From the NCBI GenBank assembly GCA_964016885.1, contig OZ024742.1, positions 198,834,001 to 198,898,000 of the forward strand: a DNA stretch of 64,000 nucleotides. Reading direction: 5' to 3'. Position 1 is the stretch's first letter. Every line of letters begins with the position of its first letter. This document shows positions 301 to 57,470 of the stretch, one piece after another. A model generated the notes under the pieces. That model did no database searches, was not told the origin of the DNA, and saw only the letters and a list, made by a program, of their open reading frames with translations. The stretch is from Eledone cirrhosa. Taxonomy: Eukaryota. The translations under genes were made by a program, and so were the position numbers.

Positions 301-433
301 ATTAGTACTTTATACTCATGAAAGGTAGAGTATAAATATCATAAACATTTTCTGTCTTATGGTTAAACTCTTACCATTTCAATAAAAATGAAAAGCTGAT
401 TTAGTTTTTCATTTTCTTTGAAAAGATAAAAGC

Positions 434-500
<67 letters not shown>

Positions 501-503
<3 letters not shown>

Positions 504-3300
504 TGGCGTCACTAGGGAATTTGCGTCCGGGGGCAAGCTCGACCCCCCCCCCCCATCCTGTTATTTAAATGACATGAAAAATTATGAATATATGATCTAA
601 AATTACTTTTATAAAATTAATATGGAAAAAAGAGTAAAAAAATATTTACAAAGGGATCTTTCTAGCTTTAGCTGATGCAAATTGATCGATTTTTTCATCA
701 AAATCGGTTGCGTTTGTTTCTTCGCTTTCTATGCTGAGGATGGAAAGATCGCGCAGACGGCTTTGAGACATTGATGTCCGCAAATATGATAAGATGAGGT
801 TGAGCTTGCTGAAGGATCTCTCACAGCTTGCGACGGAAACGGCCATTGTTAGCAGTATCCGATTCGGATATAGACTGTTGTCTCCGTATTGAACAATAAA
901 ATTCAGGAGGTGTTCTGGTCTTGAGACTGAAACATTAGCGCGGGTTGACAACAACGCCCGACAGTCAACGGTTTCTTCAAAAAGCTCCTTGCCGTCAATG
1001 TCAGCATTGTAGTGATCAGCTAATGAAGAGCACTTTGATCGAAGCGCGAGGTCGTCTGGAAAAGGTGGATAGCACAGAGAGCGGATATCGAGGAGGAAGC
1101 CAAATCTCGCGTCAATATCGTTGAGACGGGCGAATCGTAGCTGCATTTCTGATTGAATTCGAAGGACAACAGTTTGTATGACTGTTTTTACTTCACTGGC
1201 TGGTGATAGTATTCATCTTCAGAATTATCTGAAAGCTGCCGTCTTGGCCTTCCGCTACGTTTGCTGATGTCAATGTTCCAGCGTTGACTTAACTCAATGC
1301 CTTTATTAAGTGATTGCTGGGCAAGAGTACTTCCATTATCCGCGAAATACTGCTGGAGGGCTTTGATGTCATCAGCGGCATCACGGAAGTTCATTGTTGG
1401 ATCTTGAAGGCGTTTCTGAACCCGATCGATTCGAGCCAGAATCCTATTCCAAAATCTAAGCAACAGGGAGAAGTGGAAGACAAGCATTTGGCTTAAAAGA
1501 TGTTCTGCATCACTTCGTGTGTCGGATCTCTCCTCATTATCCTCTACCAACTTTTGCAGAAGCTCGAGGATTTCATTCAGTAAGTTTGCAAGATGCTTTA
1601 CAGCATCTGCTCTTGCGCTCCACCTGGTGTCCGATGGAAATTTCAGAACAAAAGGGATTGCTTGCTTTAACTTTTCCCAACGCCGTGTTGATTGCGAAAA
1701 GAACGCAAACAATGACTCGATGACGTTGAAAAATGACATAACTTTGAAGCTACTCTTCGCTGCGATCAAACCAATGAGGTTAAGTGAATGGTTGTCACAG
1801 TTAACAAATATCGCCTTTTCGTTCAAATTCGTTATGCGTTGTTGAACCCCACTGGTGTGTCTGGCCATAACCGCAGCGTTGTCGTAACATTGTGCCTTGC
1901 AATAACCCAGCGCAAGGCCATCATCTTTCAATTCTTTTAAAATAAGTTCTACAATACTGGTTGCATCTTTCTCTACCAGTAGGGTGATCTCCAGAAAGGA
2001 CTCTCGGATGCGAACGGTCCTTTTGTCGAAATCAACATCGACATACCTCACCACTCGTGACAGCTGGTCTCGATGAGCTTGATCAGGAGATGAGTCCACC
2101 ATCAGCGCATAACGACGAGCATTTTTTACGCGTCGAAGAACATTCTTCTTGACGTTGAAAGCAAGTAGATGAATGAATTCATTTGGGATTGTGGGAGAGA
2201 GGTACGACGTGGAACCTGGATGAGTTTCCGCATTACTTAGAAACTCCTTTGTCACAGGATCAAAACATGACAGCAACTTCAATAAACTGATGAAGTTCCC
2301 AGCGTTGGTCGTTTCGTTTTGCTGGAGCGATTCGCGATGTCCCCTTAATGCAAGATTATGGGTCGCAAGAAACTTGATGCATTGTAGAAGTCGAGAGAGG
2401 ATATCGCGCCAACGTTGCTTCTCGGTTGTTATTAGTGATTGAAGCTGTGCATCGATAATTCCTTGCTCTTCTGTCAAACTGCGTTCCATCTCTTTCCACT
2501 GAGTGAAACAGCGCCGATGATGAAGACTGTTCTCATGCAACTCCATTTTCTCTGGCTTCTTCCAGTTGCTGAAGCCATTTTCTTGTTCAAGTGCGGATTT
2601 GAAACTCTAACCGGAGAAAAGAAGGCAGCAAAAGCAGAATGCCGACTTTTTGTATTGGGAGTACAGAAGCCACGATCGCGTGATTTCTTCGCCCTGGCCG
2701 TTGCACAACTTGCGATCAAACCAACTTCTTGTCATCGAGCGATTGCTACTTGGTGCAAATGGACCATCGGAATTCTGGAAGTACTTCCAACCAAGTCGCA
2801 CTAACTGCACTCTTAATGAATCAGGTACAAGTGGTCGTCCGGTTACTTTGTCAAACTGAAGAAGTCCTATGTCGTGCTGTTGAATGACGTCAATAATTTA
2901 CAGGGTCATCTGATTTACAGGGCTCGGGTTTTAAGACACAATGCTGCGACTCATCGATGCCTTCTGAGGAAGATGAACTTGATGAAGCCTCGCAGCTTGG
3001 ATGCTCATCAGCAGTTGGATGAGTAGGAAGGGGGGGACAGGATGTGCTAGGTTGAGTAAAAAAAGACAAGATAACTTGGCTAGATTTCACGGCTTTTTCT
3101 TTCTGCAACTTCCGCCTTTTCCGTCCTTCGGCTCCACTTTCTTTATTGATGACTGTCCGCTTCATGATTATACAAAACTCCTACAAAACAACAAATGAAT
3201 GCATTTTCAGAACGACAGTTTTAACTACAAAAGAACTATGCTAGTATCTTAATGAAGAGATTGGCTATAGTGACCACAAGGCACTGTTGTTGCAGTAAGA
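501..3300 (-). mobile_element. hAT-superfamily DNA transposon, decayed; one terminus visible
   Basis: hAT-like end CAGTGGCGTCACTAGG at 501 abutting (TA)n, followed by transposase fragments; opposite terminal inverted repeat not found, so the right boundary is approximate. Confidence 0.75.
646..3165 (-). pseudogene. hAT transposase (ZMYM1-like; TTF zinc finger, DUF4371-like core, hAT dimerisation domain), broken by stops/frameshifts
   Basis: ORFs 2890-3165, 2607-2810 (RSWLLYS..AFCFCCLLF), 1188-2546 (LALRGH, GNF..LL, DSSPD, CYDNAAVM, TRWSAR), 646-1146 (SVASCERSFSKL). Confidence 0.9.
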
Positions 3301-3799
3301 CAAACAAACTGTTATATTCTGGTAGGAAGATTGTTTAAAACTTTGGTATTGACTTATTGCATAAGTCAATACCAAAGTCTACATGATTTATGTAATGCAT
3401 TCATAAGTTGTTCACTTAAATCAAGACCGTTAATTCAAGGAACAAAGCGATTCCATATTTTTTCTTGGTTTCCGAAAAAAAGAGTTCATTTTGAGAATAA
3501 ATCAGCAGTTAGTCATATTTTGTGGGTTTGGATTTCACGTATGAAGAAATTCTTTAGAAAAGCTAAGTTATAGAGCACAAACAATTGATGGGCTAATGTA
3601 TTGAGCAACGGAAAACAAGTTTTTGTTCGTGCACAGTAAAAAAGAAAATAATTTACTCATTTCAAAAGGAACTAACGGAGTAAGAGCACACAATTGCAGA
3701 GTGAAAAACTGTTCTTGCAAGTGACTTGCAACCACATTTGGTAGGAGGTTCATTGAGCTGATTTATTCCTGTTCATTCATGCTGTACGTGTGTGTACGT

Positions 3800-4182
3800 G
3801 TGTGTGTGTGTGTATGTGAAAGCAAGGGTTCGGGAAGAACGGGGTTGCATGTTCAGGAAGAAGTGTGTGTGGGGTGGGGTGTAGGTCGGAGTGTGTGTGC
3901 GTGTGTGGATAGAGGGGTGGGGGAGGAATCCGGAGGCTGAATGTGTAAATATGTGGTGGAATGCACGTGTGTGTGGTATTTAAGCGTGTTGTGGGTGTAG
4001 GTGGCGAGTGGGGAAAAAAATGTTTGGGGGGGGGGGGGTGAGTCGTAAAGGTGATTCCGTAAGAAGATGTGGTGGAAAGGTTGGTAAAATCCTAGGATGC
4101 TAGTTGATTCCGCGGTCAAGGTCCACATACGAGTAATCCGTGAAGAGATTGGTCGGAAGAGGGGAGATGTGGGGTGCGCGCG

Positions 4183-4185
<3 letters not shown>
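3800..4185 (-). repeat. Dispersed repeat, homologous to 58020-58455 (probable PLE 3' tail remnant)
   Basis: Shared blocks GGGAAGAACG..CATGTTCAGGAA..GGGGTGGGGTGTAGGTCGG and terminal GGGGTGCGCGCGCAA. Confidence 0.6.
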
Positions 4186-4256
<71 letters not shown>

Positions 4257-4330
4257 TTATGTTTATATATATAAAAATAAAATTAGAATTTTATTTCTCG
4301 CCCTAGCACAGCTGATAGATAGATGTAAGT

Positions 4331-4423
<93 letters not shown>

Positions 4424-4574
4424 CACACACATATGTACATATACATATGTACGTATGGGTTATATCGAACATTAATAATAATGTTTGATTCGTTTGTAAA
4501 TAAACGGCCCAATTTGAAGCTGCACCGTGCCGGTGACTAATCATCACCTGTTTGTTCAACACTGGATTTGAAGA

Positions 4575-4617
4575 ACAATCAACATGTTTCTGGGTGATTA
4601 CGCTTCATCAGGACTGT
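4575..4617 (-). ncRNA. Minimal type-I hammerhead ribozyme, stem II degenerate
   Basis: Minus strand acagtc-CTGATGA-agcgtaatcaccca-GAAA-cat-gtt-gattgt; stem I acagtc/gattgt, palindromic stem III ACATGT. Confidence 0.6.
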
Positions 4618-4727
4618 ATACCTCTGCCAGTCTGTCGAACGGTTGAAAATCTATAGTATTTTCTTAAGTACACATTGATTGAGTAGCCTCATTTGCATAC
4701 CAAGAAATAAAATTATAATTTTATTTT

Positions 4728-4827
<100 letters not shown>

Positions 4828-5355
4828 GAGAGAGAGCTAGGTGGCACCTGTTTGAGAACTATGCTTTTATGTAAGTTGGATATTATGTGTTAAAAGTGTG
4901 TATTGGCATAATACACAAAGTATATTAAGAAAGAGAGGCTGAAGTTTCAGTTTAACATATTTTATTCATGTTTCACAAATAACCAGCTCAGAGCCTTAAT
5001 TGATTACAACCAGCTTTAACTCTGAGATCAACTTGATCATTAGATAGCAGTGGAGATCAGAATCGGAATATGTTCCTCTTTGAACTGATTCAAAACTGAT
5101 TGTAATTGATTAAGGCTCCAAGCTGGTCATTTGTGAAACACGTGTAGAGGTGTGATTAAAGTTAAACTGTAAACTCGATTTCTCTTTCTTAATTTGTGTG
5201 TGTAACTAAGGCCACTAATTGGCTTAACTTGAACATAAACAAATCTACACTAAAGCTATCCGTGAACTCAAGCAAACATAAACCATAAATCTACATTCAA
5301 CCCACTCATCAGACACATACTGCACAAGACATAGTAAAACACGTTCTTCAAAATC

Positions 5356-5378
5356 GTGTGTGTGTGTATGTATATGTG

Positions 5379-5414
<36 letters not shown>

Positions 5415-5600
5415 CACACACACATGTGTTTGTATGTACATATACATGCATATATATATATATATATACACATGTATATGTACATACAAACACATATATA
5501 CATATGTATACGTACACACACATGCATATATATACATACATATATATATATATATATATACATATATATACATATATATATACATACATATATATACACA

Positions 5601-5650
<50 letters not shown>

Positions 5651-5726
5651 CACATATATATATATGTATATATATATACGTATGTATATATATATATATA
5701 TACATATGTATATATATATACATATG

Positions 5727-5758
<32 letters not shown>

Positions 5759-5764
5759 CATATG

Positions 5765-5797
<33 letters not shown>

Positions 5798-5800
5798 GTG

Positions 5801-5849
<49 letters not shown>

Positions 5850-5906
5850 GTATATATATGTATGTATATATATATATACATATGTATATATATATATATA
5901 CATATG

Positions 5907-5955
<49 letters not shown>

Positions 5956-6018
5956 GTATATATATATACATATATATATGTATATATATATACATATGTA
6001 TATATATATATACATATT

Positions 6019-6065
<47 letters not shown>

Positions 6066-6112
6066 GTATATATATATACATATGTATATATATATATATA
6101 CATATATATATG

Positions 6113-6177
<65 letters not shown>

Positions 6178-6220
6178 GTATATATATATACATATATATA
6201 TGTATATATATATATACATA
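5356..6220. repeat. Compound (TA)n/(CA)n/(TG)n microsatellite, ~860 bp
   Basis: Direct reading; source of the YIYI ORFs. Confidence 0.95.
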
Positions 6221-7013
6221 TGTCGTTTCTGAATTTGTTTAGCAAGATTCTTTATCTGAAATCGTGTGTTGAAACCGATATTGTTATACTTTGGGAGGGT
6301 CATGTTGCCAATAAGAAACACACGCACCAGTTGCTTTCACTTCAATTTATTATATATTTATAAATTTATAAATTTACAAATTTACAAACTTATAAATTTC
6401 TGGTTGGTTGGTTAGTTCCACAACCAGATAGTTGTTTATATATAGTCATAGTCCTTTCGTCACACACTCTGTGACCTCTTCAGTGACTGGGGATTCCTTT
6501 CTTCGTTTCTGTGCCTTTCCTTTCTTCTATCCTACGCCATTTTGTTTCTGTGTGTGTGTTGTGTGCTCAGTTTGCGCATGCGCCACATCCGGGTGTCTGT
6601 GTGTGTTTGTGTTCATTTATCTATTTGTTTGTTTATTTAATTATTTATTTATTTATTTATTGTTGGTTGGTTGTTTGTTCTATGTGTGTGTGTGTTTTCA
6701 TTTTGTCCTGTGTGTGTTTTCATTTTGTCCTTAATTGTAAGTTGTTTGTTCTATGTGTGTGTGTGTTTTCATTTTGTCCTTAATTGTAAGTTGTGATGTT
6801 GCTGTTCCACTCATATTTTCACAGAGTGTGTGACGAAAGGACTATGACTATATATAAACAACTATCTGGTTGTGAAACCAACCAACCAACCAGAAATTTA
6901 TAAGTTTGTAAATTTGTAAATTTATAAATTTATAAATATATAATAAATTGAAGTGAAAGTAACTGGTGCGTGTGTTTCTTATTGGCAACATGACCCTCCC
7001 AAAGTATAACAAT
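6220..7013 (-). mobile_element. Non-coding PLE-like terminal repeat with inverted partial copy (arms ~6279-6474 and ~6819-7013)
   Basis: ~195-bp near-perfect inverted arms containing an HHR, flanked by TA tracts; relatives at 11058-11230 and 40125-40470. Confidence 0.7.
6444..6488 (-). ncRNA. Minimal type-I hammerhead ribozyme
   Basis: agtca-CTGAAGA-g-gtcac(agagtgt)gtgac-GAAA-ggac-ta-tgact; stems I and II pair, CUA cleavage triplet. Confidence 0.75.
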
Positions 7014-7804: not shown

Positions 7805-10535
7805 TCACTCTTCATCCTTAACCCATCTGAAGAAGGATATTTTTAAGCGATGTGTACAACTTATCGCTGTTTCAGCTCTGCTGTTGATGAGCTCGTGGGG
7901 TGTAGTTATGATGTGGTAGAGCTCCATGAGGCAAAGATCGCATTTCCTCTTGAAGTTGTACGGTGCAGCCCTGCCGAAAATCTCCCAGTGCGTGGAGAAG
8001 CTGATGTTTAAGTCCTTTAGTGATGTGATGTAGTCCGCGAGCGAAGTGGAGTGCCTTAGTTTTCTATTTGTGAAAGAGTGGAGATGTGTTCGAAACCTAA
8101 TTTTGAACGGGCCGGAGGTAGCCCCTATATAATGTTTAACGCTATTGTGGCTAGTAATAGTGCATCTATATATAACCCTATCAGTCAAGCAGTATCCTCT
8201 AAGGGGGCTGCGTCTTCTGTCGCGGCAGTTGCAATTTCTGTCGCGGTTCCGTCTATTTCCCACGGTAAGGCTATCATTGTTGCTGCCTACGTTGTTACCC
8301 ACGCTACCGCAGTTGTTGTTAGCACCATTACAACCCACAGCACGCGGGATGGTGCGATTGTTATTCCGCACGTCATGTTCTGCATGTTCCCCAGTCATTT
8401 CGCGGTTATTCTGGTTGCGTCTGCGGATGCCGTTGCCAACACTATTGGATGCTGCCAGGGAGTTGTTAAGGCCGATATAGTTATTGTCAGGTGTAGGTGC
8501 GTCTGTGTTGAGGTGCTGTGTCTTGGTGATCTTACTGTGGTTCGTTGTTCCTATGATGTCTGCTAGGTTAGGAGTAGTAGAGAAGGATATTTTTATATTG
8601 TTCCTATTAAGAATTTTTCTATACCTATGGTTGGGCGGGAAGTTCTTCTCTAAGGCTTCGAAGAACATCCGGGGTATGTTGGAGGCCACACTCCGAGAGT
8701 AGGGGGGTGGAACCATAGGACGTTACGGTGGCGATTACGTGTCCTTGTACTTTTGCTACGGGTGGTTCTATCTAAGTGACCGCTCTTATGTGTGTTAATG
8801 CGCAGTCGTCCGTTCGGTGCCCCTTTCACTTTGTGCTCGGGTGCACTCTTTCTACCTCTTCCATGTTTATGTACACGAAGATGTTGGTTGGAAGGCGTTG
8901 GTAGTAGGCCGTCGCCTTTGTTGGTTTTGTAATAGGGGAATAGTTTGAGTAATCTACAGTGTTCACCGTCGCCGGGGTCGTGATCTTTGGTGCGGTTATT
9001 TATTCTATTATATCTGACTTCAACGAGGTCGCCGCGTGATCGGTTATAGGTATGGCTTACTATAACGTTAGTTTTATGAGGGGGGTGGTTTCTAGAGCTA
9101 GCGTTAGGGATGTAGGAAATTCCTCGGTTAAAGCCGGCGCTTATCAGGGCCCTATTGTAGTAATCTGCCGCTTGGTTGAAGATATCCTCATTGGTGGATA
9201 GCCTCGAGATTCTATGTGAGATACTATAGACTATGGAGTTGAGAGTCTGCTTAGGGTGGTTGGAGGCATAATTAATATAAGAGAGGCATTCTACAGGCTT
9301 ATGGTATGGCTTGTATAAGCCCGTACTCAACTCCAGGGTCACGTCCAGGAAGTTGACAACCCTGTGGTTGAGGTCCATAGTTACGGATAGGCCGTATGAC
9401 TTAAAGAACCTGTGTATATGTTTGTTAAGGTTCTCTATCCTACGGGGGCTATGGTTCCTAACGGTAAACAGGGCGTCGTCCCTATATACACCTCCTTGTA
9501 GGGCCGGTATTTCTTCCCTAAGCTTATGTAGGAGGTATATCCCGACCAGGTCAGTTGCTTGCGCTGAGTCACTGGACCCCATCGTGACATCGAAGTTATC
9601 AGGACGGTTGGTTCTGGTCCAGTGGGAGCCTTCGAACTGGATAATGGTTCTACGTGCCGCTAGAATTATGTCTATTTCTTTTTTAGTGAGGCTAGTGTTA
9701 GATCTAGCTAAGATAAGTGCCTTATTTAAGAGTATGGGGGAGATAGAGGCGTAGTAACTATCTATATCAAACTGGATGAATTTCAGGGTGGCTTTATCCG
9801 ACTACTCGGTGAACCAATTTATGACCTGGTCGGTGTTGCCCCAGAGGCAGACTTTAGCCTTTCTATTAAGCTCCAGTAGTACTCTGTCGAGGATCACTTT
9901 ACTAATCTTACCTATATCTGATGTAGAGGGGCATATTAGTCTAATAGAGGGGCTTTCATTAAAGTCATATTTGTGATCCTTAAGAGAGAATTTAGACGTC
10001 AGAGGGACGTACGGGTTAGTGTACTTTTCTATTTCTAAGCTGGTGACTATATCCTTCCCTACTCTATTTATGTCATTTAGGGTATAGAGGGTGTCTTTTT
10101 GTAGTCTTTGTGTAGTTCCTTATAGATGAATTTTTTATACTCACTCGCGTCCATCTTGTACAGCTTTTTGGTTTTGTCGGAGGTGACGAAGAGGTGCGGG
10201 TCATTCTTGATCTTAGTTATTAGTATATCAAGGGACGTTAAGAATGGATTGCTGCATTGGTGTTTCTTTCTGAGCTTAACGTTTTTGATCATTTTCAGCA
10301 GGTCCTCTTCAAAGGAGTCCAGTAAGGTGTTGTGCGGTGGGTTTCGGTATGTTTTGAAGCCATACCTCTCTTTGGGTTCAGGAAGGTTACGGGTGTTCTT
10401 ATCCAGGTGGTAGGCCTTCCATCTAACTCTCCGTATAAACGAATTAGTAGCGTCTATAAGCAGTTTAAGGTAGGTTTTTCTGCTGGGTAAGGGAATACAC
10501 TTGAGAGACATGGGTAACGGCTGGTTCTCCAACAT
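7805..10535 (-). pseudogene. PLE reverse transcriptase plus GIY-YIG endonuclease, frameshifted
   Basis: SLKCIPLP..RRVRWKA N-terminus; MGSSDSAQ; YRDD; FLDVTL; WFHPP; CNC..PL.G.C; VIY..YIGAT..FK.R; C..C..CTH C-terminus. Confidence 0.9.
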
Positions 10536-18037: not shown

Positions 18038-20364
18038 CATCATCATCATCATCATCACCGTTTTACGTCCGTTCTTCCACGCTAGCATGGGTTAGACGGG
18101 TTGTCCTGTTGTAGGCAGAGTCTGGTCGGCTGACCATACCTTGCTCATACAGGAACTGATTTGGTGGCTTGATTTCTACAGCTGGATACCCTTCCTAATA
18201 CCAACCTCATTTACAGTGAGTGCTGGGTGCTTTTTCGTGGCGCCTACACGTCCACTTTACAGTGTGGGCTGGGTGCTTTTTTGCCGTGGCACCTCCACGA
18301 CCACCTTGCAGTGGGGGTGTGGGGGCATATTGTCTATATGCTTCAGCTTGTACCCATGGGAGGTCGGGTACTCTGTATTACTGCGTGACACCAGAGGTCA
18401 CGGTCGTGTGTCATCGCCTTTGAGAGGTGTAATTGGGTAAGGTCGGCTTTTATCACCTCATCCCAGGTCATCTTGGGTCTCCCCACTCCGCGGTTTCCAT
18501 CGACTTCTAGTGCTCTGCACCTTTTTATGCAGCTGTCATCCTTCATACGCATCACATGTCAATACCAACGCAACCGCCTCTCCTGCACACAGCATTTGAT
18601 TCCTCTTATGCTCAGTCTCTCTCAATTCATTTATGCTTTGACGGTCGTGTATATTACTATTACACATCCATCGGAGCATGCAGGCTTCGTTTCTCTCTAA
18701 TCTACGTAAATCTTCCACCTTCAGCGCCCAGGTCTCACTACCACGTAACATTGCTGTTCGGATACACGCATCATACAGTCTGCCTTTCATTTTGAGGGAG
18801 AAGCCTTTTGCAGCTAGCAGTGGTAGTAGTTCCCTAAACTTCTTGCATCCCGTTCTTAGCCTAGTTATTGTACTTTCTGAACACCCACCTCCGCTGCTAA
18901 TTCGGTCACCTAGGTAGCAGAAGCTGTCTACTGTTTCTACAGAGCCCTCCCAGAGATTGGTGGTACTTGTTTCCTGTGGCTGTTTGTTGCTTGCCGTCCC
19001 AGCGCAGCTGCTGCATGTGAAGCCTACATTCTTAATTAAGCTTCCTGAGATCCCGCTACATGTCTTGTGTACCCATTGTTTGCATTTCGGGCAGAGAATG
19101 GAGTTCCTACCTACACCTTTCCTACATACTGAGCAAGGCCATTTCCCTGAGGGGATCTGGGTTGTCTTCTCGTCTACTTACAAGGACCTTAGTCTTTGTC
19201 ATGTTGACTTTGAGACCCTTTCTTTCTAGTCCCTGCTTCCAAGTTTGGAATTTCTTCTCTAGTTCTACTATAGATTCAGCTATAAGTGCGAGGTCATCAG
19301 CATACAGGAGTTCCCATGGGCATCCGGTCTTAAACTCCTCCGTTATTGCCTGCAGGACTATGATGAACAGGAGAGGGCTAAGAACAGAGCCCTGGTGGAC
19401 CCCAACCTGTACGCTAAATTCCTCGCTATACTCATTGCTAATCCTAACTTTGCTGACTGCTCCCCTATACATGGCTTGTACAGCTTTCACAAGCCATTCA
19501 TCTAGTTTTCTAAGAGACCACCAGATTACAGCACGTGGAACTCTGTCTAAGGCTTTCTCAAGATCGACGAATGGCAGGTAGAGTGGCTTACTTTTAGCTA
19601 GGTACTTTTCCTGTAACTGCCTCACAAGGAAGAGGGCATCAGTGGTGCCTCTTCCTGGTACAAACCCAAATTGCATCTCATCTAGTTTCACCCGGTCCCT
19701 AATCAACTGTGCTATAACTCTTTCTGTTACTTTCATGACCTGGTCCATCAGCTTTATACCTCTATAGTTTCCTCTATCGAGTGCATCACCTTTACCTTTG
19801 TAGCAGTTGACAATGATGCTACTGCACCAATCTTTTGGTATGACACCTTCTAGTATTACCTGGTTAACAATTTGTGTGGTTATAGTGTGACCTACAGACC
19901 CAGATGCCTTCAGCATCTCGGCAGCTATACCCGATGGACCGGTTGTCTTCCCCATCTTCATATCTTTGATTGCCTTACTTACTACGCTGCTGCTGACTTG
20001 TACTGCTGGCCCCTCTATAGGGTCTACTTGGGGTAGGGTCTCTTCTTCCCATGCATTCTCCTCATTTAGTACTCTTTTACTCTTTTACCTGTTTCAGCCA
20101 TCCGGCTGAGGCCATGCTGGGGCACCGCCCTTGTAATCTATCATAATGACTCTTCCATGCATCTTTCTTCTCAGCACTTGTGAGGGCAAGCTCACCTTTA
20201 TCATTCCGGATACACTTCTCTCCAATGACATCACAATTCTCTCTGACACACTGCCTCGCAATCTTGAACACCTCCTGTTTCTGGTCCTCACGTTGCAAAA
20301 CATGCTTGAATTTTCTATCCTCTGCTTCCCTCCTAGCTAAGTAGACTTCTCGCCTAGCTTCCCT
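18037..20364 (-). mobile_element. RTE LINE family A, 5'-truncated, with Cys/His finger downstream of RT
   Basis: NYRGIKL, QFGF, FVDLEKA, GVHQGSVLSPLLF, YADD, GRPK; (ATG)n tail. Confidence 0.92.
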
Positions 20365-20438
20365 ATATATATATATATATATATATAAAATATTAAACAA
20401 ATAATGAATAAACAATTCCTTATATTAAACAAAAAAAG

Positions 20439-20593
20439 TTCATTATTTAACGATCGTTTCTAGGGTATATATGTGTTATAATTGGTATGCATATTCAACA
20501 GATCTATGTACAAAATTATACAAAATTATACAAATTATCAAGATTAAATATACATACCTAACACATATATACGCCGTCTTCAGAAATAATGAA
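20439..20593 (-). ncRNA. Hammerhead ribozyme with ~116-nt stem II (mirror of 31286-31440)
   Basis: Reverse complement of the 31286-31440 motif. Confidence 0.75.
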
Positions 20594-21433
20594 GTATATT
20601 TATTGATAATAACAACAATTCAAAATATCAGTTCAAAATTGACCAATGAAAACACAAAGGGTTAAAAGCAGTTCGGTGTGTGTATATACATGTAAAATCC
20701 TTACACATATTTTACAAAAATGTATGTATAACTTGTATACGCATACTAAAAAGATGGATGCAAACACAAAATTTCAAGGTTAATATCTCTGTAAGCTTAA
20801 AATGCGCTGATAAGATGCGCATTGATACTTATGGAGTCAAGCATATAAATATATTTTTTTTCCTACTCACCCATATCAGTATAATCACACATACATGCGC
20901 GTATATGCATAAATATACACATAACCACGAACATACAAACACACACACACCCCCACTCACATTTATATATGTGGATATAAAATCATAAGCACATGGAAAT
21001 TAAATCACTCACATAAAACACTGGCACACACATTTCAAGATCAAGATACAGAAATTAGGTGGGAGGGGGGGGAGGGGTCAGTATTCAATTGTCTGAGCAG
21101 ACTGCCTAATATAAATGTATCTATAAATTAAGAAAAATAAAAAAATAAAACAATAAAATATAATAAATATAATATAATATACATACACATACAGATATAT
21201 ATACACATACATACATGTACGCGCACATAGAAATATTTACGCATACACACATACACACATACATATACAGTCATACACATACATACACTTACACGAACAT
21301 ACACATACACATATAAAAAGATATATATATACACACACACACACGCGCAACACATACACACATACACATATATATAAAAAAAATAGATAATAAAGATATA
21401 TATCCATATATATATATATATACACACACACAT

Positions 21434-21484
<51 letters not shown>

Positions 21485-21563
21485 CATACACATAGATCTA
21501 AATATACATACACATACATACACACATACATGTACATACATGTACATACATATACGCACATCG

Positions 21564-21616
<53 letters not shown>

Positions 21617-21927
21617 TAGACATATAGATACATACACACACAACTTACATACACACGTATATATATATATATAGATGTACCTTCATACATAGAATTAGAT
21701 ATATAATCATACATACATATGCACCTACTTATACTCATATATATAAATACATACGCTTCCATATATGTGTATATACATAAAAAACAATACAACCTCACCA
21801 AACTCAGACATACAAATAAAAATAATAATAAAAAGGCATATGTATATACATACACACACGCATTAATAGAGATATATATATATACACACATACATACACA
21901 TATATATATATATACACACATATATAT

Positions 21928-21976
<49 letters not shown>

Positions 21977-22097
21977 TAGACTCATACATATATATATATA
22001 TATATATATATAAACATATATATCCACACACTCATACCACCATAAATACACCTACAAACACCCACATATATATATATATATATCTATATACACACAC

Positions 22098-22146
<49 letters not shown>

Positions 22147-22295
22147 TAAAAAACAGACATGCACATATATATATATATATATTTTATTACTCTTATATAT
22201 ACACATATTATATATACATACACAACCTCACTTATACACATATACACATAAGTTATATTATAATAATAAAGAATAATATACATATATATATATAC

Positions 22296-22327
<32 letters not shown>

Positions 22328-23622
22328 ATACATACATACACATACATACATACACATAAACATATACATACATAAATACACACATACGAATAAAGACATA
22401 TATTCACACATAGACACCTATATATATATATATATATATCTATATATATATATACCCATATATATATATATATATATATACATACACACACACACACACA
22501 CACAGACACACATACACACTCACATATATATATATATGTATGTGTGTGTGCGCACATACACATATATACACACACACATACAAACACACACAAACTCATA
22601 CATATGCATACGTGCACACACACACACATATATCACATAGATACGAAGATAAACATATAAATAGAGAGACATACATATATATACACAACACACATACCCA
22701 TACATACATACACGCATATACATATACATACATATATACACATATATATATTCCTATATATACAAGCATACACATACATACACATATATACACATACATA
22801 CACATATACATACAACACATTCACATACACATACATATATAATGCATATATATACATATATATACATACATATGTATGTACAATCATATATACACACACA
22901 ATCTTACATTCATATTTGCATGCTCATATATGTATTTTTATATTTAGATATAAATACCCAAACCTATATAGACACCTACCTACATATATATTCATACATA
23001 GACGCTTACAAATACAGATGATAATAGTATGGGGGAATGGGGGGGTTTGGAGAAGGGGATCAAAGTAAATATATGTTTCAAGAAACATATAATATTTTCC
23101 GTATCTTTATTCAATGTATGTTCTTACATATTTTCAGTGCTAGGAAATACGAAATCTATGCATCTCAAAATAAATAAGTATACCATTAATCATATGTTAA
23201 CTAAATCAAAGATAGTCAACATATTGATTTCTAAGGTGTAAATTAGTTAGGTTTATAATATTTGGAGCAGAATTTTGAAGTCAAACAGTAGTAGATTATT
23301 AATTACAGTATAACTAAATTAAAGTTAATAACGTTATGGTATCAATATTAGGAAATGAATTTAGTAATAGGGAAAAGAAACCCAAATAAAAATAAAATAA
23401 AGTATTACATCGGTAGTAGCATATAAATTATATGTTAACTAAATTAAAAATTATATATTTATTTCAATAGTATACGTTAATTAGTATATGTTAATTAGGT
23501 ATACAATACATAAAGCAGATATTGTGTTTCATCAATAGCATAATATAATTATATGCAAATAGAAATCAAAATTAATACGCATACATATACATATACATAC
23601 ACATACACATATACATACATAT

Positions 23623-23673
<51 letters not shown>

Positions 23674-24202
23674 TACACATATATACATACATACAGATAC
23701 ACATACACAACACACACATACACATACACATATACATATACATATCTTTTTCAAAAAATTGCACAGAATATATTAACTAGGTATATATCCAAAACACATC
23801 CCATTCTATGATTACATGACATTCTGCAATTCGTCTGTATAAGGATACTAATTTTAAGCAAATTAAAATTAAAATTTTTAGGTTGATTAAAACTAAAACC
23901 AAATAATAAATATATTTCCAAAATGTATATTAATTAGGTCTATAATACTAAAAATTATTTCTCTGTCATTGGATACATGATATTATTTTGTTATATTTTA
24001 TCTGTAAAAGAATTATAATAAAAGGTTTAAATAAATTAAAATTAATCTATAAATTAAATTACTAAGTATATATTAGTAATATTTAAAGGTTTTTCACAAT
24101 TTATGATTACATAATATTTTCTCATCTGTAATAAAATATTAATTAAATTAAATTTATAGGTTAACTAACATTTAAATTAAATTAATTTCTAGAATAATGT
24201 TA

Positions 24203-26531
24203 TTAATTAGGTTTATAATATTTAAATGTTTTTTTTAGTTTATGATTACACGATATAATTAATTCCTGTCGTTTATTTAATAAGATATCCTTAGACTTCA
24301 TTATTTCAAATAGTTCTTGGGAACATAATCTACATTCCTTTCTATTATTTTGATAAGGGGTGGCTCTTTTGAGCACACTCCAGGTCAAATCATATTTTAT
24401 ATTCTTATTTTTATAACTATTGATTTTTTCTGCTAGAGATGTTGTATTAGCCAGTGCGGCATTTTTAAAACTATGCTTGTGGGTATTAAACCTTGTCTTA
24501 AAATTGTTAGAGGTAGCTCCTATATATGAGCAAATAGAATCTTTAGTTTTAACATTACATTTATAGACTATGTTGTTAACAAGACAATTCCCTTTTAATG
24601 GGCAGTTTGTTTTGTTTCTACAGTTACATCCTTTCGTTAATTCTGTATTTGAGGAGATATTATGGTTAATTTGATGTACTGGTGGTATACTTATGGTTTT
24701 CTTACATTTATATGCATTATATGCACTTATATTTTGTTTTATGTTATTTGTTGTAGAGTATGAGAATTTAACTGTAGACCTATTTAAGATTTGATGGTAT
24801 TTGTGGTTTGGCGGGAAGTTTTTCTCAAGGATATAAAAAAATTTTTTAGCAATATTATCCTTAACTTGTAAATTAAAAGGAGCATTATACCAAGTAACTC
24901 GTCTATTACGGTTTCTATGTTGTTTATTATTTTTATTATTTTTATAGGTTGTATCATGATTTTTACTAGGAGGATTAATGTTAATGATCTCACCACAACT
25001 ATTTTTAGTTATATTTGTAGATTTAGGTGTTTTATCTTTTTTATTAGGAGTTTTATTATTAATATTTATTATAGTTGTATGATGAGTAGTTATTTGAGGG
25101 TTACTATACTTTATATTAGAAGATTTAGTATTTTGGGGTATATTGTGGGTGGCATTTAGGTGTGTACTTTTCATTTGGTGTTTGTTGGTAATATTATGCT
25201 GTATGCTTTCAGTATTTTTAGTAGAAGGTATATACTCTAATCTATTTTTGTGGCCACTTCTATCTAGAGCTTCATTATAAAAGGTCGCATTTTTATCAAA
25301 TACATCTTGGTTAGAAGAAAGGTTAGAAATTCTAAGTGATATATTATATGCAAGGTTTTTAAGGATAGATTTAGGGTGATTAGATTGTGAGTGTATGTAA
25401 TGTAAGTTTTGGTTAGGTTTATGGTAAGGTTGGTATATACCCGTAGCTAAATCTAAAGTTATATCTAGGAAATTTACTACTTTACTTGTTTTTTCAAAAG
25501 TAATATTAAGATTATAATAGTCTTTAAGGAAAGTTCTAATATGTTTTTTGTTTTTTTCGATTTCTGAAAGGCTAAGGTTGTTAGAAAGAAGAAGACAGTC
25601 ATCACGATATAAACCACCTTTGAGGTGGGGAAAAGAGGCATTTATGTTGAAAAGGAGAAAGAGGCCCACAAGATCAGTAATTTGGGCGGAATCGCTTGAA
25701 CCCATAGTAATATCAAAAAGATTACTGTATGTGTTTCTGGTCCAGTATTCATTCTGAAATTCAATAAGTGTTAGTCTAGCATGTGTAATAATGTTAATGT
25801 CATCCGAAGTTAAATTAGATCTATTTTTAGCAAATATTAATGCTTTGTTCAGGAGTATAGGTGATATAGAAGAATAGTAATTATCTATATCAAATTGTAG
25901 GAAAGAAGCAGAAGATTTACACCTAATATTTTTAAACCAGTTAATTACCTGGGAGGTGTTTTCCCAGAGTGGTAAAATAACGTGTTTTCTTATTTGTGGG
26001 ATGACTCTATCTAAAATTTTTTTGCTAATTATTCCAATATCTGATTTGGAGGGACATATAAGTCTAATAGAAGGATTAGAGTTAAAGTTAGATTTGTGAT
26101 CTTTCAGGTTGAAGTGTGGTCTTTTCAATGCCAAAGGTTCAGTTCTATCTTCAATGTTTAGTTTTTTTACTATGTTGTGTGTTTTGTTGTTGATGTTGGT
26201 GAGTGACGCATTATTAGATTTTTTATAATTTTTTCTGAGTTCTTTATATATGAACTCATTATAATGTTCAATATCCATATGATACAAGTTACCAGTTTTG
26301 TCCGAGTGGACATGGATTTTTTTAGACTTTTTTAGGTCCAATAGGGTAGAATCAAGGTCCTTTTGAAAGACGGATTTATACTTTTTAAATTTGAGGTGTT
26401 TAATTAAATTAAAAAGGTCTTTCTCGAAGTCTTCAAGTAAAAAGTTGTGTGGTGGATTCTTGTAAGTATTGAAATCATACATATATTTCCGATCTGCTTG
26501 TTTAGATTTTCTATCGAAGTGGTAGGCTCTC
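24203..26531 (-). CDS. PLE RT plus GIY-YIG endonuclease, uninterrupted but 5'-truncated at the inversion junction
   Basis: 759-aa ORF, open upstream to (W)RAYH at the junction; DKT, LKDHK, RLI, FDI..YSSI, MGSSDSAQ, YRDD, CNC..CPL.G.C, IVY..YIG, C..C..CNH. Confidence 0.9.
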
Positions 26532-27679
26532 CATATAATATATCACTTAGAATTTCTAACCTTTCTTCTAACCAAGATGTATTTGATAAAAATGCGACCT
26601 TTTATAATGAAGCTCTAGATAGAAGTGGCCACAAAAATAGATTAGAGTATATACCTTCTACTAAAAATACTGAAAGCATACAGCATAATATTACCAACAA
26701 ACACCAAATGAAAAGTACACACCTAAATGCCACCCACAATATACCCCAAAATACTAAATCTTCTAATATAAAGTATAGTAACCCTCAAATAACTACTCAT
26801 CATACAACTATAATAAATATTAATAATAAAACTCCTAATAAAAAAGATAAAACACCTAAATCTACAAATATAACTAAAAATAGTTGTGGTGAGATCATTA
26901 ACATTAATCCTCCTAGTAAAAATCATGATACAACCTATAAAAATAATAAAAATAATAAACAACATAGAAACCGTAATAGACGAGTTACTTGGTATAATGC
27001 TCCTTTTAATTTACAAGTTAAGGATAATATTGCTAAAAAATTTTTTTATATCCTTGAGAAAAACTTCCCGCCAAACCACAAATACCATCAAATCTTAAAT
27101 AGGTCTACAGTTAAATTCTCATACTCTACAACAAATAACATAAAACAAAATATAAGTGCATATAATGCATATAAATGTAAGAAAACCATAAGTATACCAC
27201 CAGTACATCAAATTAACCATAATATCTCCTCAAATACAGAATTAACGAAAGGATGTAACTGTAGAAACAAAACAAACTGCCCATTAAAAGGGAATTGTCT
27301 TGTTAACAACATAGTCTATAAATGTAATGTTAAAACTAAAGATTCTATTTGCTCATATATAGGAGCTACCTCTAACAATTTTAAGACAAGGTTTAATACC
27401 CACAAGCATAGTTTTAAAAATGCCGCACTGGCTAATACAACATCTCTAGCAGAAAAAATCAATAGTTATAAAAATAAGAATATAAAATATGATTTGACCT
27501 GGAGTGTGCTCAAAAGAGCCACCCCTTATCAAAATAATAGAAAGGAATGTAGATTATGTTCCCAAGAACTATTTGAAATAATGAAGTCTAAGGATATCTT
27601 ATTAAATAAACGACAGGAATTAATTATATCGTGTAATCATAAACTAAAAAAAACATTTAAATATTATAAACCTAATTAA
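26532..27679 (+). pseudogene. Inverted duplicate of the PLE C-terminal half (thumb, linker, GIY-YIG)
   Basis: Translation from YNISLRISNLSS onward is identical to the 759-aa ORF. Confidence 0.9.
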
Positions 27680-28208
27680 TAACATTATTCTAGAAATTAA
27701 TTTAATTTAAATGTTAGTTAACCTATAAATTTAATTTAATTAATATTTTATTACAGATGAGAAAATATTATGTAATCATAAATTGTGAAAAACCTTTAAA
27801 TATTACTAATATATACTTAGTAATTTAATTTATAGATTAATTTTAATTTATTTAAACCTTTTATTATAATTCTTTTACAGATAAAATATAACAAAATAAT
27901 ATCATGTATCCAATGACAGAGAAATAATTTTTAGTATTATAGACCTAATTAATATACATTTTGGAAATATATTTATTATTTGGTTTTAGTTTTAATCAAC
28001 CTAAAAATTTTAATTTTAATTTGCTTAAAATTAGTATCCTTATACAGACGAATTGCAGAATGTCATGTAATCATAGAATGGGATGTGTTTTGGATATATA
28101 CCTAGTTAATATATTCTGTGCAATTTTTTGAAAAAGATATGTATATGTATATGTGTATGTGTATGTGTGTGTTGTGTATGTGTATCTGTATGTATGTATA
28201 TATGTGTA

Positions 28209-28255
<47 letters not shown>

Positions 28256-29552
28256 ATATGTATGTATATGTGTATGTGTATGTATATGTATATGTATGCG
28301 TATTAATTTTGATTTCTATTTGCATATAATTATATTATGCTATTGATGAAACACAATATCTGCTTTATGTATTGTATACCTAATTAACATATACTAATTA
28401 ACGTATACTATTGAAATAAATATATAATTTTTAATTTAGTTAACATATAATTTATATGCTACTACCGATGTAATACTTTATTTTATTTTTATTTGGGTTT
28501 CTTTTCCCTATTACTAAATTCATTTCCTAATATTGATACCATAACGTTATTAACTTTAATTTAGTTATACTGTAATTAATAATCTACTACTGTTTGACTT
28601 CAAAATTCTGCTCCAAATATTATAAACCTAACTAATTTACACCTTAGAAATCAATATGTTGACTATCTTTGATTTAGTTAACATATGATTAATGGTATAC
28701 TTATTTATTTTGAGATGCATAGATTTCGTATTTCCTAGCACTGAAAATATGTAAGAACATACATTGAATAAAGATACGGAAAATATTATATGTTTCTTGA
28801 AACATATATTTACTTTGATCCCCTTCTCCAAACCCCCCCATTCCCCCATACTATTATCATCTGTATTTGTAAGCGTCTATGTATGAATATATATGTAGGT
28901 AGGTGTCTATATAGGTTTGGGTATTTATATCTAAATATAAAAATACATATATGAGCATGCAAATATGAATGTAAGATTGTGTGTGTATATATGATTGTAC
29001 ATACATATGTATGTATATATATGTATATATATGCATTATATATGTATGTGTATGTGAATGTGTTGTATGTATATGTGTATGTATGTGTATATATGTGTAT
29101 GTATGTGTATGCTTGTATATATAGGAATATATATATGTGTATATATGTATGTATATGTATATGCGTGTATGTATGTATGGGTATGTGTGTTGTGTGTATA
29201 TATATGTATGTCTCTCTATTTATATGTTTATCTTCGTATCTATGTGATATATGTGTGTGTGTGTGCACGTATGCATATGTATGAGTTTGTGTGTGTTTGT
29301 ATGTGTGTGTGTATATATGTGTATGTGCGCACACACACATACACATATATATATATGTGAGTGTGTATGTGTGTCTGTGTGTGTGTGTGTGTGTGTATGT
29401 GTATATATATATATATATATATGGGTATATATATATATAGATATATATATATATATATATAGGTGTCTATGTGTGAATATATGTCTTTATTCGTATGTGT
29501 GTATTTATGTATGTATATGTTTATGTGTATGTATGTATGTGTATGTATGTAT

Positions 29553-29584
<32 letters not shown>

Positions 29585-29733
29585 GTATATATATATATGT
29601 ATATTATTCTTTATTATTATAATATAACTTATGTGTATATGTGTATAAGTGAGGTTGTGTATGTATATATAATATGTGTATATATAAGAGTAATAAAATA
29701 TATATATATATATATGTGCATGTCTGTTTTTTA

Positions 29734-29782
<49 letters not shown>

Positions 29783-29903
29783 GTGTGTGTATATAGATAT
29801 ATATATATATATATGTGGGTGTTTGTATGTGTATTTATGGTGGTATGAGTGTGTGGATATATATGTTTATATATATATATATATATATATATGTATGAGT
29901 CTA

Positions 29904-29954
<51 letters not shown>

Positions 29955-30265
29955 ATATATATGTGTGTATATATATATATATGTGTATGTATGTGTGTAT
30001 ATATATATATCTCTATTAATGCGTGTGTGTATGTATATACATATGCCTTTTTATTATTATTTTTATTTGTATGTCTGAGTTTGGTGAGGTTGTATTGTTT
30101 TTTATGTATATACACATATATGGAAGCGTATGTATTTATATATATGAGTATAAGTAGGTGCATATGTATGTATGATTATATATCTAATTCTATGTATGAA
30201 GGTACATCTATATATATATATATACGTGTGTATGTAAGTTGTGTGTGTATGTATCTATATGTCTA

Positions 30266-30316
<51 letters not shown>

Positions 30317-30395
30317 CGATGTGCGTATATGTATGTACATGTATGTACATGTATGTGTGTATGTATGTGTATGTATATTTAGATCTATGTGTATG

Positions 30396-30444
<49 letters not shown>

Positions 30445-31285
30445 ATGTGTGTGTGTATATATATATATATATGGATATATATCTTTATTATCTATTTTTT
30501 TTATATATATGTGTATGTGTGTATGTGTTGCGCGTGTGTGTGTGTGTATATATATATCTTTTTATATGTGTATGTGTATGTTCGTGTAAGTGTATGTATG
30601 TGTATGACTGTATATGTATGTGTGTATGTGTGTATGCGTAAATATTTCTATGTGCGCGTACATGTATGTATGTGTATATATATCTGTATGTGTATGTATA
30701 TTATATTATATTTATTATATTTTATTGTTTTATTTTTTTATTTTTCTTAATTTATAGATACATTTATATTAGGCAGTCTGCTCAGACAATTGAATACTGA
30801 CCCCTCCCCCCCCCTCCCACCTAATTTCTGTATCTTGATCTTGAAATGTGTGTGCCAGTGTTTTATGTGAGTGATTTAATTTCCATGTGCTTATGATTTT
30901 ATATCCACATATATAAATGTGAGTGGGGGTGTGTGTGTGTTTGTATGTTCGTGGTTATGTGTATATTTATGCATATACGCGCATGTATGTGTGATTATAC
31001 TGATATGGGTGAGTAGGAAAAAAAATATATTTATATGCTTGACTCCATAAGTATCAATGCGCATCTTATCAGCGCATTTTAAGCTTACAGAGATATTAAC
31101 CTTGAAATTTTGTGTTTGCATCCATCTTTTTAGTATGCGTATACAAGTTATACATACATTTTTGTAAAATATGTGTAAGGATTTTACATGTATATACACA
31201 CACCGAACTGCTTTTAACCCTTTGTGTTTTCATTGGTCAATTTTGAACTGATATTTTGAATTGTTGTTATTATCAATAAATATAC

Positions 31286-31440
31286 TTCATTATTTCTGAA
31301 GACGGCGTATATATGTGTTAGGTATGTATATTTAATCTTGATAATTTGTATAATTTTGTATAATTTTGTACATAGATCTGTTGAATATGCATACCAATTA
31401 TAACACATATATACCCTAGAAACGATCGTTAAATAATGAA
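31286..31440 (+). ncRNA. Type-I hammerhead ribozyme with ~116-nt stem II
   Basis: ttcattattt-CTGAAGA-[long hairpin]-GAAA-cgatcg-tt-aaataatgaa; 10-bp stem I, palindromic stem III ACGATCGT. Confidence 0.78.
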
Positions 31441-31737
31441 CTTTTTTTGTTTAATATAAGGAATTGTTTATTCATTATTTGTTTAATATTTTATCTTGAC
31501 TCTGTATACCGTTTATCTTTCACCGAAAGTGGATTTTCATTACATCTCTTCTTTCCATGATATCCGGAATACATTGAGTTCTTCATACGGATTGGACACT
31601 ACCGTAAACTCTTGGTAGATTTATCTACATATATATATATATATATATATAGTAATAATAATAAATTTGAAGACTAAAATCCAAAGAGGGCTCGATAAGG
31701 ATAAATATATATCAAATATATAAGGACTGTAGAGCAA

Positions 31738-31866
31738 ATATTTATTAAAATAACAGATTAAAGTTTAATCGCTGCTTTCACCCTCAACGGGATCTTCTGA
31801 AGATCCCGTTAAGGGTGAAAGCAGCGATTCTTTGCTTAAACTTTAATCTGTTATTTTAATAAATAT
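31738..31866. repeat. Short fold-back centred on an HHR core
   Basis: GGGATCTTC-T-GAAGATCCC centre; right arm CTGAAGA-t-ccc(gttaa)ggg-t-GAAA. Confidence 0.7.
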
Positions 31867-31972
31867 ATATATATATATAACCGTCTCCGTGGACTAGTGG
31901 TAAGTATTAGAGGTGGTGGAGACCCTGGTCTGGGGTTCGATCTTAGTCAGATTCCTGCAATCGTTATTTTAT

Positions 31973-32317
31973 GGAGGCACATGGCTTAGTGGTTAGAGCA
32001 TTGGCCTTGCAATCGAAAGATTGTGAGTTCAATTCTCAGACCAGGCGATGTGTTGTTTCCTTGAGCAAGACACTTTATTTCACATTGCTCCAGTTTACTC
32101 AGCTGTAGAAATGAGATGATAGGGACTGGGGTCCATATCATTCCACTGTAAAGTGGACGTGTAGGTGCCACGGCAAAAAAGCACCCAGCACTCACTGTAA
32201 ATGAGGTTGATGTTAGGAAGGGCATCCAGCTGTAGAAATCAAGCCAGAAGCAGTTCCCGTCCCACCCTTGGAAGCAGGGAAAAAGCGGACGTAAAATGAA
32301 ATGATGATGAATGATGA
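31973..32317 (+). mobile_element. tRNA-derived SINE with CORE-like segment and RTE-type 3' tail
   Basis: A box TGGCTTAGTGG, B box GAGTTCAATTC, CCTTGAGCAAGACACTT, tail ending GGACGTAAAATGA..(ATG)n. Confidence 0.85.
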
Positions 32318-56700: not shown

Positions 56701-57470
56701 GATTCTTGCATTCATCCTGTTCACTGAGATTACCTTATCAACGCATTTGTCAGCTAATAGTATACCTACCCCTCCCATCCTGTTGTCATTTCCCACCCAG
56801 AAAAATTTGTAGCATTGACTTTTGCCTACGAGGACTCTAGCAGACTCTCCTCTCCATCTAGTCTCTTGCACACAGCATACATCAATTTCCTTTCGCTCTA
56901 GCATCTCTATGATTTCTCCTGCTCTTCCTTTCATTGTGCTTACATTGATGGTTCCAACTCAGAGTTTTGGACATTTGCCATCACTCGTAGGATAGAGTGA
57001 ATTTTTGCGGTGGGGTATGCTTCCTGTCTCTGGATTAAAGCTTTGCATTGGTGCTTGGTAACTCGCGGATTCATATTCATTTATTAATTTGGGGTTATTC
57101 CATTTATCCCCAGCTCATCCATAGATATCAGTAAAGGAATTATTATTATTTAGTGCAGGGCTAGGACAGTAGTATTAATGGCAGAGTTTGTTGGGGCTGG
57201 TAAGGGCTAGGAGGGCAGTAGTAGTAGTAGTAGTGGCAGTGTTTGTTGGGGCTGATAATGGGTTGAGGTTTGATTGGTCGAATAGCCTACGGCGGTGAGT
57301 GGGGGCGGGTGGGATTGAAATTGTGAGAAACGGATGAACTGGAGACGACTGAAAATATTTAGGAATCCATGTAGCCTTTCAGAAATCAGAAATCTGTGTC
57401 TGGCTTCGTACCACCGGAGTGAATGAATGAGAGAGAGAGAACGAGATGTGATGGGTTAAGGGAGCAGCCA
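53742..57470 (-). mobile_element. RTE LINE family A, near full length (APE, RT, Cys/His finger), decayed
   Basis: APE: CVQETRW, SAYAPQ, GDFNGHVG, SQIDFI (56317-56934); RT 54547-55569; (ATG)n tail. Confidence 0.92.

What the first reader, a model, noticed from the sequence alone, without database searches (positions are those of the whole stretch)
20385..31494. 11-kb fold-back: two ~4.96-kb inverted arms of one PLE
A 5'-truncated copy is joined head-to-head, via ~CAT microhomology at 26532, to a copy starting mid-ORF. The arms differ mainly in microsatellite lengths and rare substitutions, and the right arm extends ~135 bp further. Inverted 5' structures are known for PLEs, but at this scale it could generate multi-kb dsRNA (an ADAR/small-RNA substrate) and be unstable. 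The open ORF implies a recently active family.
Basis: partly seen in the sequence, partly recalled or inferred. Interest (0 to 1): 0.75.

Follow-up and report, generated by a model that had tools for sequence, protein, structure and literature searches.

The report
Giant head-to-head Penelope retrotransposon insertion
This 11-kb mirror-image stretch is one young insertion of a very abundant Penelope-like jumping gene, likely made when both ends of a cut TA repeat copied the same RNA from two fixed start points; head-to-head insertions are known for this class, but here they are unusually large.

Summary
Arms 20385-25350 and 26532-31494 are 99.66% identical and inverted around a 1,181-bp loop, joined at a 3-bp CAT overlap, with a 135-bp tail on the right only. 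The element is a Hydra-clade Penelope-like retrotransposon (6,559-bp unit, 813-aa RT/GIY-YIG ORF, hammerhead motif in each arm) between TA tracts.

It is not unique: the assembly holds at least 4,344 tailed ends, and fold-backs reach 38.8 kb. A chimeric-read artefact is unlikely because each arm holds element sequence the other lacks, but no reads crossing the junction were available. Of 25 inverted insertions found from consecutive tailed ends, all had a tail-less partner end. Seven short insertions have arms sharing no sequence. All units of one insertion share one haplotype (median 2 differences within loci, 21 between).

Best reading: twin priming on one RNA from two fixed sites 135 nt apart. 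Inverted copies and one-sided tails are published, and this scan already proposed the same mechanism for short palindromes elsewhere in this genome. The dsRNA/ADAR idea is untested: no RNA data, and no A>G excess in inserted copies.

The parts
20364..20384 (.). Left (TA)n target tract
   Evidence: paralogs of the left-flank LINE have no TA here
20385..26534 (-). Left copy, unit positions 400-6559, ending at the tail-less 3' site (site A); includes the loop
20439..20593 (-). Type I hammerhead motif in left arm (CUGAAGA begins at 20583)
   Evidence: motif scan; span is the mirror of the right-arm motif
20594..24202 (-). Long 3' UTR with degenerate (CA/TA)n tracts, left arm
24203..26534 (-). Open RT + GIY-YIG ORF, missing the first ~37 of 813 codons (no ATG)
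25351..26531 (-). Unpaired loop (RT core), present only in the left copy
26532..26534 (.). Inversion junction, 3-bp CAT overlap, unique in the assembly
26532..31494 (+). Right copy, unit positions 1584-6559
26533..27679 (+). C-terminal part of the ORF (thumb, linker, GIY-YIG), open
31286..31440 (+). Type I hammerhead motif: 10-bp stem I, CUGAAGA at 31296, 116 nt between the cores, GAAA at 31419, palindromic stem III, predicted cut after 31430
   Evidence: fold and motif scan; activity untested
31495..31629 (+). 135-bp tail = first 135 bases of the next tandem unit, ending at site B; absent from the left copy
31630..31651 (.). Right (TA)n target tract

Best explanation
This is a single young insertion of a Hydra-clade Penelope-like retrotransposon between TA tracts, made of two 5'-truncated copies joined head to head, likely because both ends of the cut target primed reverse transcription on the same element RNA at two fixed start sites 135 nt apart. 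Shown: structure, the two fixed ends, their pairing rule and the shared haplotype. Inferred: the GIY-YIG/RT protein, probably a dimer, nicks both strands of (TA)n. One 3' end primes at the unit boundary (site A, no tail) and the other at site B (tail). The RT lacks RNase H (recalled), so the RNA would survive and be copied twice. Here the two cDNAs stopped after about 6.15 and 5.1 kb, their 3' ends annealed through CAT, and fill-in made the 11-kb fold-back. The copy lacks its ATG and upstream partial unit, so it is probably inert, and it would give dsRNA only if read through from outside.
For: (1) Neither arm can be a copy of the other: the loop is only in the left copy, the tail only in the right. 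(2) Of 36 consecutive exact tailed ends on C1, 25 belong to inverted insertions and all 25 have a tail-less partner; 11 are uninverted. Independent choice at the genome-wide tail share (4,344 of 5,961 exact ends) would give about 18 double-tailed. Of 34 consecutive tail-less ends: 22 pair with a tail, 2 are composite, 10 have no inverted arm; the two samples share some loci. Among long loci 18 of 18 fully resolved are tail/no-tail. (3) Seven short insertions (L095, L096, L117, L118, L168, L169, L174) have one arm wholly inside the tail and the other starting at site A. (4) Sister arms share one haplotype: window 0 differences in 2,159 sites vs 8 to the nearest other locus, with 3 locus-private variants in both arms. 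Full-unit pairs differ by a median of 2 within loci (19 pairs) and 21 between (608 pairs). (5) The inner ends of the two arms lie closer in unit phase than shuffled pairs (9 of 22 within 500 nt, p=0.006), and many short insertions end at unit 6345-6360 on both arms. (6) 8 of 22 junctions show clean overlaps of 1-8 nt vs chance mean 0.93; 14 could not be scored cleanly. (7) In vitro a Poseidon PLE cuts and extends both strands and starts RT at two internal sites that bound its tail (PMC11167929, parts 1-2 of 4 read).
Against: No reads across this junction: the runs laid come from divergent individuals and none showed it. In vitro the RT start site did not differ between strands (PMC11167929), so the strict A/B pairing has no biochemical explanation yet. 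Variants shared between units give no consistent register (two fit mirror-from-centre, one fits outer register, one neither). Three loci have site A at both ends of the element part (L114, L121, L129); two of them also mirror flanking DNA. Shared haplotypes could also come from one active source locus per event or from later conversion.
Confidence: 0.68

Rival explanations
1. Self-priming or snap-back: one cDNA folds back and copies itself (or an antisense RNA self-primes), and the endonuclease then resolves the hairpin at sites A and B.
For: Proposed for head-to-head Penelope junctions in PMC3846280 (passages read); PMC8557442 ascribes the tail to EN-mediated resolution (passages read). Inner ends are correlated in phase, and two derived variants are shared in mirror register.
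Against: A target-primed snap-back makes one arm a subset of the other. That fails in this window and in C1230, and cannot give the seven insertions whose arms do not overlap. It survives only with a free, longer intermediate that is trimmed afterwards.
Confidence: 0.17
2. Two separate RNPs from one active source locus prime the two ends, or arms and units were homogenised after insertion by gene conversion.
For: Either gives one haplotype per locus.
Against: Independent RNPs do not explain 0 of 25 double-tailed insertions or the correlated inner ends. Single-unit substitutions (35 sites) and microsatellite length differences persist between units.
Confidence: 0.1
3. Assembly or library artefact (fold-back chimeric read), or a DNA-repair inverted duplication unrelated to retrotransposition.
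For: No independent read crossed the junction. Coverage could not be checked.
Against: The arms stop at the element's two fixed 3' sites, each followed by TA and different flanks. Each arm has element sequence the other lacks. The arms differ at a clean substitution. The same grammar recurs at dozens of fetched loci.
Confidence: 0.05

Closest known systems
Hydra clade of C-terminal EN+ PLEs, e.g. Hydra-1_Obim of Octopus bimaculoides (PMC8557442 section 11 and supplement rows)
   Same: RW(K/R) and DKT motifs, CxCX5C linker, CxxC and CxH around the EN E/N, (TA)n targeting, type I hammerhead with minimal stem III; N-terminal sequence visibly alike by eye (no alignment run).
   Different: Unit 6,559 bp vs generally under 3 kb (2,507 bp for Hydra-1_Obim), mainly through a ~3.8-kb microsatellite-rich 3' UTR; hammerhead with 116 nt between the cores; clear tandem and inverted units.
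Canonical PLE insertion unit with inverted 5'-truncated copy and one-sided tail (PMC8557442 Fig. 2 legend; PMC3846280)
   Same: Head-to-head inverted copy, partial tandems, tail at one end only.
   Different: Tail is 135 bp rather than 30-40 bp; arms of 5-19 kb rather than about 200 bp in the Adineta examples; the tail rule is quantified here.
Poseidon of Anolis carolinensis in vitro (PMC11167929)
   Same: Two RT start sites downstream of the hammerhead cut that bound the tail; both target strands extended; AT-rich targets.
   Different: Different clade; the parts read do not link the two sites to the two ends of inverted insertions.
L1 twin priming
   Same: Both target ends prime on one RNA and the cDNAs join by microhomology, giving a 5' inversion.
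   Different: In L1 the second priming is at variable internal sites and the arms do not duplicate each other; here both sites are fixed and the same RNA stretch is usually copied twice.

Membership tests
EN+ Penelope-like element | Single ORF with RT core and C-terminal GIY-YIG | tested here: met
   YRDD at 346 and VY..YIG at 693 of 813 aa; 1,006 homologs, two of the listed 120 carrying PF01541. Direct Pfam scan of P0001/P0002 gave no hit.
EN+ Penelope-like element | Partial tandem and inverted insertions with tail | tested here: met
Hydra clade | RWK motif, no GxKF/Y | tested here: met
   RVRWRA at 35 (K to R variant); no G.K[FY] match
Hydra clade | DKG changed to DKT | tested here: met
   SDKTG at 114
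Hydra clade | CxCX5C linker; CxxC and CxH around EN E/N | tested here: met
   CNCRNKTNC 673, CRLC 771, CNH 799; no CX2-5CxxC
Hydra clade | CCHH motif of the EN absent | not tested
   No dedicated alignment to CCHH-bearing ENs was made.
Hydra clade | Canonical hammerhead and (TA)n target | tested here: met
   Rfam scan listed no hammerhead at E<=1, probably because of the long stem II
Hydra clade | Placement in the RT phylogeny | not tested
   Reference sequences were seen only as supplement text; no tree built.
Naiad/Chlamys | N-terminal EN, no hammerhead | tested here: not met
   EN is C-terminal and a hammerhead motif is present
Neptune/Nematis | CX2-5CxxC linker | tested here: not met
   no match

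The most novel reading that the evidence does not exclude
Each insertion comes from one monomer RNA, cut out and circularised by its hammerhead, which a dimeric RT copies by rolling circle from both target ends at once. This would build palindromes of up to three 6.5-kb units per arm (38.8 kb) in one step. Pointers: all units of a locus share one haplotype; sites A and B lie only about 65 and 200 nt downstream of the predicted ribozyme cut; one uninverted copy begins exactly at that cut (C1055); the two inner ends keep phase even when arms differ by whole units.
Probability: 0.3. Interest if true: 0.75.

Novelty: new variant of a known kind. Interest (0 to 1): 0.45.

Why it matters
How PLEs build their tandem and inverted insertions is open: published explanations are self-priming on an antisense template or endonuclease resolution of an intermediate. 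This young family gives countable rules (tail at exactly one end, non-overlapping arms, one haplotype per insertion) that favour two-site twin priming and can be tested with an intact natural copy. It also means this assembly probably holds a few hundred multi-kb near-perfect inverted repeats (3 of 36 sampled ends scaled to 4,344; rough), which matters for assembly quality, genome stability and dsRNA load. The locus itself is one ordinary product of that process.

Tried and rejected
Reads: no RNA holder listed. Rfam gave only microRNA-like matches to microsatellites below threshold and a weak tRNA-like hit. Empty site: no alternate allele found; left-flank paralogs are other LINE copies, and the LINE's continuation is not next to the right end. 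A target-site duplication cannot be read in TA. Host exons: 80 of 177 frames plus 18 long ORFs scanned; only transposon domains passed cut-offs; this does not exclude an intron. ADAR mark in templates: no A>G excess. One search misclassified ends and was replaced. One search's intra-locus list mixed in a neighbouring insertion and was redone. One search's phase test had two misplaced anchors and was redone. Position-only pairing was wrong for 2 of 24 pairs once sequences were read, so one search's likelihood test (23 pairs) is not relied on. Literature: 'Penelope + twin priming' gave 3 papers, none on this by title or abstract; 'Penelope + octopus + palindrom + retrotranspos' gave 0; two searches listed nothing on the rule; subscription papers on D. 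virilis Penelope were not searchable.

Full report
Observation. The arms are real: 20385-25350 and 26532-31494 align inverted at 99.66% over 4,971 columns. The 17 differing columns are microsatellite or homopolymer changes except one clean substitution. The loop is 1,181 bp. The junction overlap is CAT and is unique in the assembly. The right copy has a 135-bp extension, and TA tracts bound both ends.

Identity. Tandem copies elsewhere define a 6,559-bp unit with an 813-aa ORF starting at unit 290. The left copy covers unit 400-6559 and the right copy 1584-6559 plus 1-135. The protein has RWR, DKT, YRDD, CxCX5C, a C-terminal GIY-YIG-type motif, CxxC and CxH. These are the Hydra-clade hallmarks in PMC8557442 (section 11 read whole, other passages and supplement rows seen). 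Named homologs are molluscan or bryozoan hypothetical proteins. A cephalopod host is my inference from those hits and the recalled repeat landscape, not tested. Each arm carries a type I hammerhead motif with a long stem II and palindromic stem III; its activity is untested.

Prevalence. The loop search scored 40 of 2,573 candidates, all 99-100% identical. Exact patterns count 4,344 tailed and 1,617 tail-less ends running into TA, with 0 control matches. I fetched 25 other loci, covering 34 of the 39 other full-length hits; most are tail-out inverted, the largest 38.8 kb with three units per arm. That set is biased to long copies. In an unselected run of 36 consecutive tailed ends on C1, 25 were inverted and 3 had arms of 4.7 kb or more.

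Artefact. A fold-back read makes one arm a subset of the other and runs on into flank. Here each arm holds element sequence the other lacks and stops at one of two fixed element sites. No read evidence was obtained either way.

Mechanism. Three results favour two primings on one RNA. First, the end rule: 25 of 25 inverted insertions found from a tailed end have a tail-less partner; 22 of 24 found from a tail-less end have a tailed partner; 18 of 18 resolved long loci agree. The samples overlap in part. Second, seven short insertions have arms that share no sequence, one inside the tail and one starting at site A, which fold-back copying cannot make. Third, arms and tandem units of a locus share one haplotype: 67 locus-private variants are shared by all covering units vs 35 sites varying within loci, and full-unit pairs differ by a median of 2 within vs 21 between loci. 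In 20 of 21 loci sister arms were at least as close as any other locus (18 strictly closer; C1230 and C1_314204466 tied); C1476 and the other short overlaps carry little information. Inner ends are correlated in unit phase, as expected if both copies run towards the same RNA end. PMC11167929 (parts 1-2 of 4 read) supplies the biochemistry in another clade: two internal RT starts that bound the tail, both strands extended, predicted dimer. The steps from these patterns to a dimer on one RNA are inference.

Against. Register-informative variants disagree with each other. Three loci have site A at both ends of the element part, two with mirrored flank. Only 8 of 22 junctions gave clean microhomology. 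One source locus per event, or conversion, could also give uniform haplotypes.

Function. The window's copies lack the ATG and an upstream partial unit, so they are probably inert. dsRNA would need read-through or the antisense promoter suggested in PMC3846280 (passages read). Neither could be tested, and inserted copies carry no A>G excess. Long fold-backs from subfamilies up to about 12% from the reference still have 0-4 arm differences in complex sequence, so all sampled are young.

Novelty. The inverted copy and one-sided tail are in print (PMC8557442, PMC3846280). I wrote the twin-priming reading into my notes before seeing that earlier scan notes reached it for short palindromes in this genome; those notes are not independent support. 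This locus adds scale, the 135-bp tail, the exclusion of double tails and one haplotype across multi-unit arrays. My searches did not find the rule in print (listings only, apart from the four papers read in part; for bioRxiv 10.64898/2026.07.22.740005 passages only, supplements closed).

Noticed in passing
window 31652-31866: A ~215-bp head-to-head insertion of a second PLE-like family, with its own tail and hammerhead-like core (CUGAAGA...GAAA), shares the right TA tract; 1,953 first-look candidates, 40 scored at 92-100%.
   Followed up: partly
window 18563-20363 (-): LINE fragment (RVT_1, PHD) ending exactly at the left TA tract; paralogs continue without TA; related copy at 54187-56991.
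   Followed up: partly
G000:C2:36290961-36329726: 38.8-kb fold-back with three units per arm, 9 substitutions in 15,270 sites between arms.
   Followed up: partly
L114+L113 (G000:C1 ~30.691-30.708 Mb) and L129 (G000:C1 ~166.451-166.461 Mb): Both arms carry the same non-element flank beyond site A (about 2.7 kb and 0.5 kb), like a 3' transduction copied twice or a DNA-level duplication.
   Followed up: partly
G000:C1055 ~32,520: Uninverted copy whose 5' end falls at the predicted hammerhead cut, a single hint of cleavage in vivo.
   Followed up: partly
window 4611 (-) and 44126 (-): Two more minimal hammerhead-like motifs with 14-nt stem II.
   Followed up: no
window 646-2606 (-): hAT transposase fragments (DUF4371, Dimer_Tnp_hAT).
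   Followed up: no
window 7805-9801 (-): Two open frames of 305 and 383 aa with no Pfam match.
   Followed up: no
window 31880-32310: tRNA-like SINE pieces and a 48-49-bp repeat also seen at 18210, 35031, 39377 and 53923.
   Followed up: no
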